DNA of 64,000 nucleotides, taken from assembly GCA_009914755.4 (NCBI GenBank), contig CP086569.2, positions 4,864,001-4,928,000 of the forward strand. Direction: 5' to 3'. A program made the translations under genes and the position numbers. Below are positions 10,682 through 14,820 of the stretch, one piece after another. The stretch is from the human T2T-CHM13v2.0 reference genome, Homo sapiens. How positions within the stretch are numbered: position 1 is the first letter of the stretch; each line of letters opens with the position of its first letter. The notes below the pieces were generated by a model, which had not been told where the DNA came from, did no database searches, and saw nothing but the letters and a program-made list of their open reading frames with translations.

Positions 10682-12112
10682 ATAATACCTCTCTTACTTG
10701 GCTTTAATGAAAATTAGCAATAAGATAAAAGTTCCTAGTGCAGCACCTCATAGTGCAGCCGCTCCTAGGCACTGAATAAAGTTAGTTCTGATGATTATTC
10801 TGCCTTTCGAAAACTTCAGGTGCAATAAAAAATGATGCAACAGGAAAATATTCAGGTTCTGCATCTAAAAATTAAGATATAGTGATACGTACCTTACTGA
10901 AATAGGGTGATATGGTGAAGCACCTAACACAATGTTGGACCTCATAAGCTTTCAATGATTGTTCATTACTTTCAGATTTTCAATGAGCTATAAAGACAAA
11001 ATGCAAATGAAATTGAAAGGCATTGTCAACCATAGCGTCATGCAGATGCTACTTAATATAACTTTAAAATACATAGAAATTTTAATAAGTTTGTTCCCTT
11101 AGGAAAATAGCTAAGGAAAAATGCATAATTACCTGCTCTTTACTTATTTTCACTATTTAATAAAGCATTACAGGAAAGGTAAGAGTTGTATAGCTCAAGT
11201 AAGCAAAGAAAGCTTTCTTTTCTTTTTGATTTTGCACTTGGGGAATTTTTCTTGATCTTCTTCTTCAAAAGGAGCAGAGAATTCATTTATGTGTACCTGG
11301 GGTCTTGATTATTACAAAAAAAAAGAAGAAACTGAACAACTTTGCATACTTTAGTAAAACAAAATAATTCAATTAAGCTTATTCAGGGCATCTTGGTGTT
11401 TTAGCAAAGTTGAAAAGGACACTTGACTCTTGTTAAGGGGAGCTCTGTAGACATTTATGTCTGGGGGAATATGTTACTCAGTTTGCAGCATGATAATAAG
11501 CTCTAAACCAGGGAACTATATCAGTTGCATAGACAATGAATCCAGTCTGGAAGATAAATTGTTCACTGAGGGTAAGGTGGCTGAATTTCTGATATAAGTG
11601 GCCATATAATCATGAGAGCTTTACCTCTAATAAAAACATATATTTGGTTCTTAAAAAACAGTCACCTTATCTTTAATGAGCAATTTGACTTTTAGGCTTA
11701 ATGCATTAGTCTCTTAAGTGACAAATTTTTGTCTGTGCTAACAACTAGTTGGCAGAATTTTGACAGTGAACAGAAGCTGTCAGACAAACCCATAATATTT
11801 CCTCCAGTAGCTGATCTGTTCAATTTCAAGCATTGAAAGCTTATGTAAAACATGGAGAGAACTTGTTTTATGGTTTCTGGGATAATTTTTTTATATTGCT
11901 TGATAAGCTCTAAATGAACAAGTATCTACATGTAAGACATACTTTAGAAATAAAACTACCTGAAATGGTGGTTGCCAGCATTTGAGAGTTGGGGTATTGG
12001 GGAGATGTTTGTCAAAGGACACAAACTTTTAATTAGATACAAAAAATAAGTTCAAGAAAACTATTGTGCATCATGGTGAGTATAGTTAATAACAATATAC
12101 TTGAAAATTGCT

Positions 12113-13547
12113 GAACTAGTTTACAGTCCCACCAACAGTGTAAAAGTGTTCCTATTTCTCCACATCCTCTCCAGCACCTGTTGTTTCCTGACTTTTTAAT
12201 GATTGCCATTCTAACTGGTGTGAGATGGTATCTCATTGTGGTTTTGATTTGCATTTCTCTGATGGCCAGTGATGATGAGCATTTTTTCATGTGTTTTTTG
12301 GCTGCATAAATGTCTTCTTTTGAGAAGTGTCTGTTCATGTCCTTCGCCCACTTTTTGATGGGGTTGTTTGTTTTTTTCTTGTAAATTTGTTTGAGTTCAT
12401 TGTAGATTCTGGATATTAGCCCTTTGTCAGATGAGTAGGTTGCGAAAATTTTCTCCCATGTTGTAGGTTGCCTGTTCACTCTGATGGTAGTTTCTTTTGC
12501 TGTGCAGAAGGTCTTTAGTTTAATTAGATCCCATTTGTCAATTTTGGCTTTTGTTGCCATTGCTTTTGGTGTTTTGGACATGAAGTCCTTGCCCACGCCT
12601 ATGTCCTGAATGGTAATGCCTAGGTTTTCTTCTAGGGTTTTTATGGTTTTAGGTCTAACGTTTAAATCTTTAATCCATCTTGAATTGATTTTTGTATAAG
12701 GTGTAAGGAAGGGATCCAGTTTCAGCTTTCTACATATGGCTAGCCAGTTTTCCCAGCACCATTTATTAAATAGGGAATCCTTTCCCCGTTGCTTGTTTTT
12801 CTCAGGTTTGTCAAAGATCAGATGGTTGTAGATATGCGGCGTTATTTCTGAGGGCTCTGTTCTGTTCCATTGATCTATATCTCTGTTTTGGTACCAGTAT
12901 CATGCTGTTTTGGTTACTGTAGCCTTGTAGTATAGTTCAACCATTGTGGAAGTCAGTGTGGTGATTCCTCAGGGATCTAGAACTAGAAATACCATTTGAC
13001 CCAGCCATCCCATTACTGGGTATATACCCAAAGGACTATAAATCATGCTGCTATAAAAACACATGCACACGTATGTTTATTGCGGCATTATTCACAATAG
13101 CAAAGACTTGGAACCAACCCAAATGTCCAACAATGATAGGCTGGATTAAGAAAATGTGGCACAAATACACCATGGAATACTATGCAGCCATAAAAAATGA
13201 TGAGTTCATGTCCTTTGTAGGGACATGGATGAAATTGGAAACCATCATTCTCAGTAAACTATCGCAAGAACAAAAAACCAAACACCGCATATTCTCACTC
13301 ATAGGTGGGAATTGAACAATGAGATCACATGGACACAGGAAGGGGAATATCACACTCTGGGGACTGTGGTGGGGTGGGGGGAGGGGGGAGGGATAGCATT
13401 GGGAGATATAACTAATGCTAGATGACGAGTTAGTGGGTGCAGCGCACCAGCATGGCACATGTATACATATGTAACTAACCTGCACAATGTGCACATGTAC
13501 CCTAAAACTTAAAGTATAATAAAAAAAAAATTAAAAAAAAAATTGCT
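12113..13547 (+). mobile_element. young L1 (L1PA2/L1HS-like, non-Ta) with 5' inversion (twin priming): inverted ORF2 segment 12113-12938; direct ORF2 C-terminus, 3'UTR and poly(A) 12939-13542; TSD (G)AAAATTGCT
   Basis: The minus-strand ORF (12033-12596, [28 protein letters not shown]...[10 protein letters not shown]) is L1 ORF2. The plus-strand continuation starts at 12939 (QPLWKSVW...SLIGGN). The two segments are exactly contiguous in L1 coordinates (...aaactagttc | aaccattgtgg...). The 3'UTR is nearly identical to the L1HS consensus as I recall it (cttaaagtataat variant). The element ends in (A)n with aaaattgct on both flanks. Confidence 0.85.
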
Positions 13548-13685
13548 GGTGACAGATTGTAAGTGTTCTCACCACACAAAAAATGATAAGTATGTGAGCT
13601 AATGTGTGTTAAATAGCTTGATTTAGCCATTTCATAATGTATACATACAGAAAAACCATATTGCACACCATAAGTATATACAACT

Positions 13686-13988
13686 TTTTTTTTTTTTTTT
13701 TTTTTTGAGACAGAGTCTCACTCTGTCGCCCAGGCTGGAGTGCAGTGGCAGGATCTCGGCTCATTGCAACCTCTGCCTCCTGGGTTCAAGCAATTCTCCT
13801 GCCTCAGACTCCCAAGTAGCTGGGATTATAGGTGCCCGCCACCATGCCTGGCTAATTTTTGTATGTTTAGTAGAGATGATGTTTCACCATGTTGGCCAGG
13901 CTGGTCTCGAATTCCTGACCTCAGGTGATCCACCCGCCTTGGCCTCCCAAAGTACTGGGATTACAGGTGTGAGCCACCATGCCCAGCC
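13686..13988 (-). mobile_element. Alu SINE
   Basis: (T)25 is followed by gagacagagtctcactctgtcgcccaggctggagtgcagtggc...ggtgtgagccaccatgcccagcc. The flanking duplication is tacaac(tttt). Confidence 0.9.
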
Positions 13989-14820
13989 TACAACTTTTAC
14001 TTGTCAATTAAAAAGTAAATTTAACAAAAGGAAAAGTAAAATTAACAGGCATTTTGCAAAACCTTTATATTGGGTTTATTTCACATTTGTATCAGTTCTT
14101 TATTCTGTTTTACGGTAGGAGAAAACTTTTTATAAATCTGGAAAAAAATATTTTTTTATATAATAGCAAAGCTTTAAGAATGTTAAAATGTAAATGGATG
14201 ACTGATTAACTGTATATCAGTGTCAGCCAGTTATACATGATTTATTTTTATTAATTGTAGATAAATCTCACCATTATCTATACATGATTTACTTAGATAT
14301 TTATATATTAATTATCTTGAGAAATATATAAAAGCTCTCATTAAAGAAAAATCATCAATTTTGTGTTAAGTGACAGTGAGTGCAAAGTATAGAGACTGTT
14401 AGAAATTGATAACCTTTGTGGTGCACCATAAATGGGATTAGCAGTGTCAGTGGTGTGGTTGTGACTGTTTTGCAAGTGGTCAGGGTTTGCTCATTGAGAA
14501 GGTAGAATATGGAGCCCACATTTAATGTGGTAAGGGATTTTGTCAAGTAAATATCCAGGGGAATAATCTTCCTGCAGAGGGAATAACTAAGAGTTATATA
14601 AAAACATTACAGGTATGTTCAAGGAATCGTAAGGTGTTCAGTGTGGCTAAAGCAACTTGAACTAGGGGGCAGTGATAGGAGAGGAAATGACAGGGAAGAT
14701 GGTGGTGGCAAGGGAGATATTTGGAAAGGCCTTATAAGAAGCTACAATGGCCTGATTCCAAGTAAAACATGGAGACATGGCAGGCCTTTGCCTAGAGGCA
14801 TGAAATAATTTTACTTGGGT

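What the first reader, a model, noticed from the sequence alone, without database searches (positions are those of the whole stretch)
11935..14060. Young L1 (L1HS/L1PA2-like) with a textbook twin-priming 5' inversion, nested in the 3'UTR of an ancient L1 that is also hit by an Alu
- The element at 12113-13547 has an inverted ORF2 segment (L1 sense: ..[10 protein letters not shown]... to ...WWDCKLVQ). This is followed by a direct segment starting at exactly the next L1 nucleotide (QPLWKSVW...) through the 3'UTR and poly(A).
- The whole element is flanked by the duplication (G)AAAATTGCT. Exact contiguity of the two L1 coordinates at the inversion and a single TSD are the signatures of twin priming.
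- Its 3'UTR and ORF2 peptide are almost identical to the L1HS consensus as I recall it (cttaaagtataat variant, i.e. not the Ta subset). This makes it one of the youngest events in the window.
- It is therefore a candidate for a lineage-specific or even polymorphic insertion.
- The host is an older L1 3'UTR whose three pieces (11935-12112, 13548-13685, 13989-14060) are still colinear.
Basis: partly seen in the sequence, partly recalled or inferred. Interest (0 to 1): 0.55.

Follow-up and report, generated by a model that had tools for sequence, protein, structure and literature searches.

The report
Twin-primed, 5'-inverted L1PA2 insertion
This is a dead 1.4-kb fragment of a fairly recent primate LINE-1 retrotransposon whose front half was inserted backwards by the well-known "twin priming" mishap, sitting inside a much older LINE-1 remnant next to an Alu. 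It is real and tidy but entirely ordinary.

Summary
A 1,425-bp L1 insertion (12114-13538) is flanked by an exact 10-bp target-site duplication, AAAATTGCTG (12104-12113 and 13539-13548). Its 5' piece (12114-12937, ORF2 codons 876-1150) is inverted. Its 3' piece (12938-13520, codons 1151-1275 plus the 3'UTR) is direct and ends in a short A-tail.

Rejoined in silico, the two pieces align end to end with no gaps to solved human ORF2p and to 9 colinear L1 copies. In L1 coordinates they abut, with 0-7 nt of overlap depending on how the microhomology is assigned.

Both junctions carry the microhomology that twin priming predicts. At the inversion joint it is 5 nt, TAGTT (chance P about 0.005). At the internal priming site, 6 of 8 bases of the target's 3' end can pair with the L1 RNA (7 of 1,399 sites do as well).

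The element is 1.28% from a Ta/pre-Ta consensus but has GAG and A at the two 3'UTR diagnostic sites. That makes it late L1PA2 grade, not L1HS Ta or pre-Ta. It has about 12 private changes, including two stop codons, which gives roughly 6 Myr (3-10).

The host is confirmed as an old L1 3'UTR, and the neighbouring Alu has its own TSD. Presence in other apes could not be tested. This is a known kind of event and of low interest.

The parts
12104..12113 (.). Left copy of the target-site duplication, AAAATTGCTG. Its last 2 nt (TG, 12112-12113) are also complementary to the L1 RNA at the internal priming site.
   Evidence: Exact 10/10 match to 13539-13548 and the only match of 10 nt or more between the junction neighbourhoods.
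12114..12937 (-). Inverted 5' piece of the L1, 824 nt. On the minus strand it encodes ORF2p codons 876 (partial) to 1150. It has a private stop, TGG>TGA, at 12900-12902 (minus strand).
   Evidence: Translation. Gapless alignment to human ORF2p. Matches the colinear in-window L1 at 53708-54532 in reverse. 9 differences in 824 nt from the Ta/pre-Ta consensus.
12933..12937 (.). Inversion-junction microhomology, TAGTT. It matches both the end of the inverted piece and the L1 bases just upstream of the direct piece.
   Evidence: Both alignments to the internal reference extend through these bases. Simulated chance of 5 nt or more is 0.0046.
12938..13520 (+). Direct 3' piece of the L1, 583 nt. It holds ORF2p codons 1151-1275 (12938-13312), the stop at 13313-13315, and the 3'UTR at 13316-13520, which includes a G-rich tract at 13371-13392. 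There is a stop from CpG decay, CGA>TGA, at 12962-12964. The diagnostic GAG is at 13427-13429 and the diagnostic A at 13512.
   Evidence: The meaning of GAG comes from PMC7026601.
13521..13538 (+). Short, interrupted poly(A) tail (A10 TT A6). It is part of an exact 12-nt tandem duplication at 13520-13544.
   Evidence: Sequence. TRF reports period 12, 2.1 copies, 100% match.
13539..13548 (.). Right copy of the target-site duplication, AAAATTGCTG.
11954..12103 (+). Host: left part of an old L1 3'UTR fragment. The 10-bp target site, now duplicated, continues it.
   Evidence: nhmmer aligns the repaired flanks to the 3'UTRs of old L1 copies at window 34445-34154 (-) and 40836-40505 (-), and to L106. 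Those two window paralogs lie directly downstream of ORF2 remnants.
13549..13684 (+). Host: middle part of the old L1 3'UTR, between the young L1 and the Alu.
13685..13988 (-). Alu element on the minus strand, with a 22-nt poly(T) at 13685-13706. Its own TSD, TACAACTTTT, is at 13679-13688 and 13989-13998. It is an independent insertion into the same host.
   Evidence: 82-86% identity to at least 10 other Alu copies in the window. Junction sequences. T-run.
13989..14035 (+). Host: right part and A-rich 3' end of the old L1 3'UTR. The end is approximate and could reach about 14060.
   Evidence: Paralog alignments run to about 14023-14034.

Best explanation
This is one retrotransposition event of a late L1PA2-grade LINE-1 mRNA, resolved by twin priming.

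**Proposed steps** (steps 1-5 are inferred from the anatomy; the anatomy itself is shown)
1. L1 endonuclease nicked the bottom strand of an old L1 3'UTR at 5'-TTTT/CA-3'. On the plus strand this is TG/AAAA, between 12103 and 12104.
2. The T-tract primed on the mRNA poly(A), and the first cDNA was copied back to about ORF2 codon 1151.
3. The top strand was cut 10 nt downstream, which later produced the TSD AAAATTGCTG.
4. The freed top-strand 3' end (...AATTGCTG-3') annealed internally to the same RNA at CAACCAUU. Six of 8 bases pair, including the terminal two. It primed a second cDNA that ran 824 nt further towards the RNA 5' end, to codon 876.
5. The two cDNA 3' ends paired through the 5-nt microhomology TAGTT/AACTA and were filled in and ligated.

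**Outcome**
- The product is an inverted 5' piece joined to a direct 3' piece plus poly(A), inside a single TSD pair, with no L1 sequence lost at the inversion point.
- The copy was dead on arrival. It has no promoter, ORF1, endonuclease or RT domain.
- It has since picked up about 12 private substitutions, including two stop codons, and a 12-nt slippage duplication in its tail.
- It has no function of its own.
- An Alu inserted independently into the same host; from memory it looks like an AluS, which would make it the earlier insertion, but this was not tested.
For: - **TSD.** An exact 10-bp TSD lies precisely at the composite's two ends.
- **Orientation and contiguity.** The two pieces are in opposite orientation. 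Rejoined, they give a gapless match to ORF2p residues 877-1275 and zero-gap end-to-end alignments to 9 colinear L1 copies.
- **Tail.** Poly(A) is present only after the direct piece, and there is no poly(T) at the outer end of the inverted piece.
- **Inversion junction.** The 5-nt microhomology has a simulated chance of 0.0046.
- **Internal priming site.** It is one of only 7 of 1,399 positions with at least 6/8 complementarity, including the terminal 2 nt, to the target's 3' end.
- **Same age and state in both pieces.** Divergence from the Ta/pre-Ta consensus is 9/824 for the inverted piece and 9/583 for the direct piece.
- **Cleavage site.** The inferred site, TG/AAAA, differs at one position from the TT/AAAA consensus (sequence; consensus as given in PMC2912911 and PMC2837659).
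- **Fit to the published description.** Published accounts of 5'-inverted L1s match. They make up 30.9% of human- or chimpanzee-specific L1 insertions, about 70% have 2-5 bp of 5' microhomology, and extra nucleotides are rare (PMC2912911).
- **Subfamily.** GAG/A at the diagnostic sites, derived at 29 of 32 lineage sites, and 1.28% from the Ta/pre-Ta consensus.
Against: - Nothing contradicts the explanation, but several things limit it.
- The mechanism is inferred from the end product only.
- The perfect microhomology at the 5' junction is short (1-2 nt). The 6/8 extended pairing is suggestive rather than compelling.
- The TSD (10 bp) is shorter than the 14-16 bp mode reported for L1.
- The base after the inferred nick is C, not the consensus A.
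- The reference panel consists of contaminant contigs of unknown individual or species. Over the 5' 1.25 kb the Ta/pre-Ta consensus rests on only three copies.
- Some of the "private" changes could be variants inherited from an unsampled source element.
Confidence: 0.93

Rival explanations
1. Two independent L1 insertions in opposite orientations happen to lie head to head, or one is nested at the end of the other.
For: Two L1 pieces in opposite orientation are present, and L1 insertions are dense in this window.
Against: - The inverted piece has no poly(A)/poly(T) and no TSD of its own.
- A single exact TSD brackets the composite.
- The pieces abut in L1 coordinates to within 0-7 nt. For independent breakpoints in a 6-kb element this would happen with a probability of a few per thousand (my estimate).
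- Both pieces have the same subfamily state and similar divergence.
Confidence: 0.01
2. A normal colinear, 5'-truncated L1PA2 insertion was later rearranged by an inversion of its 5' 824 bp, through a break-and-rejoin or replication-based event.
For: The end product, an inverted block with short microhomology at one joint, is also what microhomology-mediated rearrangement can leave.
Against: - One inversion breakpoint would have to fall exactly at the L1/TSD boundary, to the base, without taking any flanking DNA.
- No inverted repeats bound the segment.
- The target's 3' end is complementary to the L1 at exactly the inferred priming site. A later inversion gives no reason for this.
- 5' inversion during insertion is very common, at about 31% of recent L1 insertions (PMC2912911).
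Confidence: 0.03
3. Dual priming occurred: two different L1 mRNAs were used, one on each nicked strand, rather than one mRNA primed twice.
For: Dual priming has been proposed as an alternative for some inverted architectures (PMC2837659). The end products can look alike.
Against: - In that model the second RNA is primed on its poly(A) tail, which would leave a poly(T) at the outer end of the inverted piece. None is present.
- Two separate RNAs give no reason for the two pieces to abut in L1 coordinates.
- No difference that would point to different source RNAs separates the pieces.
Confidence: 0.02

Closest known systems
5'-inverted L1 insertions made by twin priming (Ostertag and Kazazian 2001, as described in PMC2912911 and PMC2837659)
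   Same: - The 5' piece is inverted and the 3' piece with its poly(A) is direct.
- A single TSD pair surrounds the composite.
- The cleavage site looks endonuclease-type.
- There is microhomology at the 5' junction and at the inversion junction.
- There are no extra nucleotides.
- There is only a small overlap in L1 coordinates at the inversion point.
   Different: Nothing essential differs. The TSD (10 bp) lies at the short end of the usual range. There is no internal deletion, only a 0-7 nt overlap, whereas many examples have larger deletions or duplications.
L1PA2 subfamily of primate LINE-1
   Same: - GAG and A at the two 3'UTR diagnostic sites (PMC7026601).
- 1.28% from the Ta/pre-Ta consensus.
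- About 0.8% private divergence, which fits the published L1PA2 age of about 7.6 Myr (PMC3286893).
   Different: It sits at the youngest edge of the grade, derived at 29 of 32 lineage sites and tied with the most derived GAG copy in the panel. An automated caller might label it L1HS. No labelled L1PA2 consensus was available for a formal assignment.
L1HS pre-Ta and Ta subfamilies (currently active human L1)
   Same: - Near-identical ORF2 C-terminus and 3'UTR (98.4-98.7% to the full-length ACG and ACA panel copies L079 and L002; 97.6% to the near-full ACA copy L004).
- About 14 of 399 amino-acid differences from solved ORF2p. From memory, the K/N and D/E differences are Ta-1-specific.
   Different: It lacks ACA or ACG and lacks the G at the second diagnostic site. 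It carries two stop codons. It is older than typical polymorphic L1HS copies.
Twin-priming variants with a 5' poly(T), and dual priming (Meyer et al. 2010, PMC2837659)
   Same: Same general TPRT-derived family of inverted architectures.
   Different: Here the non-inverted part is long (583 nt plus the tail) and there is no 5' poly(T). This is the classical form, not the variant.

Membership tests
LINE-1 (primate L1PA lineage) | Encodes ORF2p-homologous sequence followed by the L1 3'UTR and a poly(A) tail | tested here: met
   Gapless match to solved human ORF2p residues 877-1275, E about 1e-270. 97-99% nucleotide identity to full-coverage L1PA copies. A-tail at 13521-13538.
LINE-1 (primate L1PA lineage) | TPRT hallmarks: a TSD and a TT/AAAA-like endonuclease site | tested here: met
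   10/10 TSD. The inferred nick, TG/AAAA, has one mismatch to the consensus (consensus as in PMC2912911).
L1HS Ta / pre-Ta | ACA (Ta) or ACG (pre-Ta) trinucleotide in the 3'UTR | tested here: not met
   GAG at 13427-13429. GAG is "indicative of L1PA2 or older" (PMC7026601).
L1HS Ta / pre-Ta | G at the second 3'UTR diagnostic site (cttaGagtataat) | tested here: not met
   A at 13512. Three of the four ACA/ACG panel copies with the most coverage carry G. The assignment of G to Ta/pre-Ta is from memory of Boissinot et al. 2000.
L1PA2 | GAG/A at the diagnostic sites together with otherwise near-L1HS sequence | tested here: met
   1.28% from the Ta/pre-Ta consensus. Derived at 29 of 32 lineage sites and ancestral only at GAG and one other site.
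L1PA2 | Best match to the curated L1PA2 consensus (RepeatMasker/Dfam) | not testable with these tools
   No labelled consensus was available. Paper supplements held none.
Twin-priming 5'-inverted L1 | Two fragments of one L1 in opposite orientation, with the 5' fragment inverted, inside a single TSD pair | tested here: met
Twin-priming 5'-inverted L1 | Poly(A) only on the direct fragment, and no tail on the inverted fragment | tested here: met
   Sequence at 12114 and at 13521-13538.
Twin-priming 5'-inverted L1 | Fragments adjacent in L1 coordinates, with only a small deletion or duplication at the inversion point | tested here: met
   0-7 nt overlap and no deletion. Zero-gap alignment of the rejoined element to 9 colinear copies.
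Twin-priming 5'-inverted L1 | Microhomology between the target 3' end and the L1 at the 5' junction | tested here: met
   1-2 nt perfect (TG). 6/8 extended complementarity, found at only 7 of 1,399 positions.
Twin-priming 5'-inverted L1 | Microhomology at the inversion junction | tested here: met
   TAGTT, 5 nt. Simulated chance of 5 nt or more is 0.0046.
Twin-priming 5'-inverted L1 | Both fragments come from one RNA (same subfamily state, same age) | tested here: met
   9/824 against 9/583 differences from the Ta/pre-Ta consensus. My chi-square is about 0.5, not significant. No discordant lineage sites.
Old L1 3'UTR (host) | Homology to sequence lying directly downstream of ORF2 in other old L1 copies, colinear across the repaired insertion sites | tested here: met
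   nhmmer hits spanning both joints: window 34445-34154 (E 4e-13), window 40836-40505, and L106. ORF2 remnants end at 34487 and 40892, just upstream of those two window hits. The subfamily name was not determined.
Alu SINE | About 300-bp element with a poly(A) tail and its own TSD, homologous to other Alus | tested here: met
   82-86% identity to at least 10 Alus in the window. 22-nt T-run. TSD TACAACTTTT. The S-type assignment is from memory only.

The most novel reading that the evidence does not exclude
The insertion may be specific to the human lineage, that is, absent at the orthologous site in chimpanzee and gorilla, despite its GAG (L1PA2-type) 3'UTR. That would make it one of the last L1PA2-grade insertions before pre-Ta took over. 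Much less likely, about 1-2%, it is still polymorphic. The private divergence of about 0.8% is close to the human-branch divergence since the chimpanzee split (about 0.6%, from general knowledge), and published human-specific L1 sets do include L1PA2-labelled copies (PMC3286893). The data here therefore cannot exclude this reading.
Probability: 0.25. Interest if true: 0.15.

Novelty: already known. Interest (0 to 1): 0.08.

Why it matters
It matters very little beyond annotation. About 31% of recent human and chimpanzee L1 insertions are 5'-inverted (PMC2912911), and L1PA2 has thousands of copies (4,917 in the reference; PMC7026601). This copy is truncated, inverted, carries stop codons and has no promoter.

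Its only modest value is as an unusually clean illustration of twin priming, because every junction can be read to the base:
- no L1 sequence is lost at the inversion point;
- 5 nt of microhomology sit at the inversion joint;
- the target's 3' end is complementary to the internal priming site.

It could also serve as a phylogenetic presence/absence marker for great apes if its orthologous status were checked.

Tried and rejected
- **Labelled L1 subfamily consensus sequences from paper supplements.** None were held as usable text.
- **Viral-contig scan for L1 3'UTR copies.** It returned 0 hits.
- **Orthologous or empty-site search.** I made five exact-product look-ups of locus-specific ORFs. 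These were junction-spanning ORFs, an ORF carrying private substitutions, and flank ORFs. None was on record.
  - None of the 111 panel contigs is this locus or its empty site; the only hits were to Alu.
  - I ran no further search on this. The failed look-ups suggest that ORFs from primate genomic DNA are not in that collection.
- **blastn for host paralogs.** It found only one, which did not span the L1 joint. nhmmer then found three that span both joints.
- **Pfam scan of the rebuilt 400-aa peptide.** It returned no family. From memory this region lies C-terminal to the RT domain that Pfam models, so the result does not argue against L1 identity.
- **Calibrating the private-mutation clock on panel copies.** I rejected this. 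Five of the 11 full-length contigs have 0 private changes, so they are collapsed assemblies or repeated samples of the same copy.
- **CpG-decay clock.** It is uninformative. There are only 10 CpG sites, of which 9 are intact.
- **Rivals considered and rejected.** Two independent insertions, a later inversion, and dual priming; see the rival explanations.
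Full report
**What is in the sequence**

The window is primate-type genomic DNA, dense in Alu and L1 copies. 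Between 12104 and 13548 lies a composite L1 insertion.

An exact 10-bp direct repeat, AAAATTGCTG, sits at 12104-12113 and 13539-13548. It is the only match of 10 nt or more between the two junction neighbourhoods.

Inside it, 12114-12937 read on the minus strand encodes L1 ORF2p. 12938-13520 read on the plus strand continues the same protein to its stop (13313-13315), then runs through the 3'UTR to ...CTTAAAGTATAAT. An A-tail follows at 13521-13538.

The concatenated peptide aligns without gaps to experimentally solved human ORF2p, residues 877-1275 (8uw3, 9k6g, 8sxt; E about 1e-270). About 14 of 399 residues differ, two of them stop codons.

**Junction anatomy**

I used two references: a colinear L1 copy elsewhere in the window (52994-55136) and a panel of 111 L1PA 3'-end contigs fetched from public genome and metagenome collections.
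- The inverted piece corresponds to reference positions 53708-54532, and the direct piece starts at 54533.
- The rejoined element (1,405 nt in that run; 1,407 nt once the last two 3'UTR bases were added for the later analyses) aligns end to end to 9 colinear L1 copies with zero gaps, at 97.0-98.9% identity. Three further copies cover nearly all of it, one with a single gap.
- Nothing is therefore lost at the inversion point.
- Two short stretches are ambiguous. TAGTT (12933-12937) matches both pieces. TG (12112-12113) matches both the TSD and the L1.
- The relation in L1 coordinates is thus a 0-7 nt overlap.
- There are no extra nucleotides at any junction.

**Tests against chance**
- Random pairs of breakpoints in this L1 gave 5 nt or more of inversion-junction microhomology in 0.46% of 20,000 trials.
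- The last 8 nt of the target's top strand (AATTGCTG) can pair with the L1 RNA just 3' of the inverted piece (CAACCAUU) at 6 of 8 positions, including the two terminal ones. Only 7 of 1,399 positions in this part of the L1 do as well.
- The inferred bottom-strand nick (TG/AAAA on the plus strand) is one mismatch from the TT/AAAA consensus.

**Mechanism**

These are the published hallmarks of twin priming (PMC2912911; PMC2837659).
1. TPRT starts from the poly(A) on the nicked bottom strand.
2. The top strand is then cut.
3. The top-strand 3' end anneals internally on the same RNA and primes a second cDNA in the opposite orientation.
4. The two cDNA ends join through microhomology.

The structure is shown by the sequence. 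The order of events is inferred.

Three rivals fit less well.
- **Two independent insertions.** This fails because the inverted piece has no tail or TSD of its own.
- **A later inversion.** It would need a breakpoint exactly at the L1/TSD boundary, and it does not explain the complementarity at the priming site.
- **Dual priming with two RNAs.** This predicts a 5' poly(T) and gives no reason for the pieces to abut in L1 coordinates.

**Subfamily and age**
- No labelled consensus sequences were available, so I used the panel.
- Panel copies were classified by the 3'UTR trinucleotide. ACA marks Ta, ACG marks pre-Ta, and GAG marks L1PA2 or older (PMC7026601).
- The element reads GAG (13427-13429) and has A (13512) at the second site.
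- Against the consensus of the ACA and ACG copies it differs at 18 of 1,407 positions, or 1.28%. That is 9/824 in the inverted piece and 9/583 in the direct piece.
- I took 32 sites where that consensus is derived relative to the older in-window L1 and the ancestral state still occurs in GAG copies. The element is derived at 29 of them. It ties with the most derived GAG copy and is ancestral only at GAG and one other site.
- It is therefore late L1PA2 grade, at the boundary with L1HS, and not Ta or pre-Ta.
- About 11-12 substitutions are private, meaning that no panel copy shares them (11; 12 counting the CpG change at 849, which one panel copy shares). They include TGG>TGA at 12900-12902 and CGA>TGA at 12962-12964.
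[quoted passage not shown] The published L1PA2 age is about 7.6 Myr.
- This puts the insertion near or before the human-chimpanzee split. Polymorphism is unlikely: a long-read survey found no non-reference L1PA2 (PMC7026601). Lineage specificity stays open.

**Limits of the dating**
- The panel consists of contaminant contigs.
- Five of the 11 full-length copies appear collapsed or are repeat samples of one copy, with 0 private changes.
- The Ta/pre-Ta consensus rests on three copies over its 5' 1.25 kb.
- Some "private" changes could come from an unsampled source element.

**Host and Alu**
- With the young L1 (plus one TSD copy) and the Alu (plus one TSD copy) removed in silico, the flanks align by nhmmer across both repaired joints. 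The hits are window 34445-34154 (-), E 4e-13; window 40836-40505 (-); and panel locus L106.
- The two window paralogs lie directly downstream of degenerate ORF2 C-termini that end at 34487 and 40892. The host is therefore an old L1 3'UTR, about 11954 to 14035, whose three pieces are colinear.
- No ORF2 remnant lies directly upstream of it, so the host copy was itself 5'-truncated within or near its 3'UTR.
- The Alu (13685-13988, minus strand, 22-nt T-run) has its own TSD, TACAACTTTT, and a TTTT/AC nick site. It is an independent event.

**What could not be done**

Five exact-product look-ups and a search of all fetched contigs found nothing.

**Verdict**

This kind of event accounts for about 31% of recent L1 insertions. 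It is already known and of low interest.

Noticed in passing
window 13520-13544: The young L1's A-tail is an exact 12-nt tandem duplication (TAAAAAAAAAAT x2.1, i.e. A10 TT A10 TT...). The repeated unit includes the first 6 nt of the right TSD (AAAATT). This is probably post-insertion slippage, in which case the original tail was only about 6 A.
   Followed up: partly
window 52994-55136 (+): A second, colinear, 5'-truncated L1PA copy of 2.1 kb. It is 95-96% identical to GAG-type panel copies and about 5.3% from the Ta/pre-Ta consensus, so it is clearly older than the element studied. I used it as an internal reference.
   Followed up: partly
window 61041-63997 (+), running off the window end: An older L1 body, about 82-83% identical to L1PA copies over about 3 kb. 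It explains the strong A-over-T skew and the higher GC at 60-64 kb.
   Followed up: partly
window 8-1203 (-), 7248-7349 (-), 34487-35702 (-), 40892-42400 (-), 51034-51489 (-): Degenerate ORF2 C-terminal remnants of several old L1 copies (30-70% amino-acid identity). The 40.9-42.4 kb copy is split by an Alu at 41546-41849.
   Followed up: no
window 25459-25606 (+): The only Rfam hit in the window is Metazoa_SRP at 71.5 bits against a gathering score of 70. It lies inside an Alu (25317-25626), so it is almost certainly the Alu's 7SL ancestry and not an SRP RNA gene.
   Followed up: partly
loci L001-L005 (genome contigs): Human-type L1 sequence sits in contigs filed under bacterial genomes, which looks like contamination. 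NZ_AAXW01000147.1 (Crocosphaera chwakensis CCY0110, 1,625 bp) is 97.6% identical to the element over 1,330 nt and has the Ta-type ACA/G. The others are PIVJ01000160.1, CANKZF010000005.1, BNUR01000003.1 and CALOGB020000013.1.
   Followed up: no
panel loci L002, L003, L050, L079, L093: These metagenome and genome contigs show zero private substitutions across 1.4 kb of L1. They are either consensus-like collapsed assemblies of many L1 copies or the same genomic copy sampled repeatedly. They are usable as references but not for calibrating a clock.
   Followed up: partly
window 13371-13392: A (GGGGAGG)x3 G-rich tract lies in the L1 3'UTR. It corresponds to the known polypurine, G-quadruplex-prone tract of primate L1 3'UTRs (from memory) and is intact here.
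   Followed up: no
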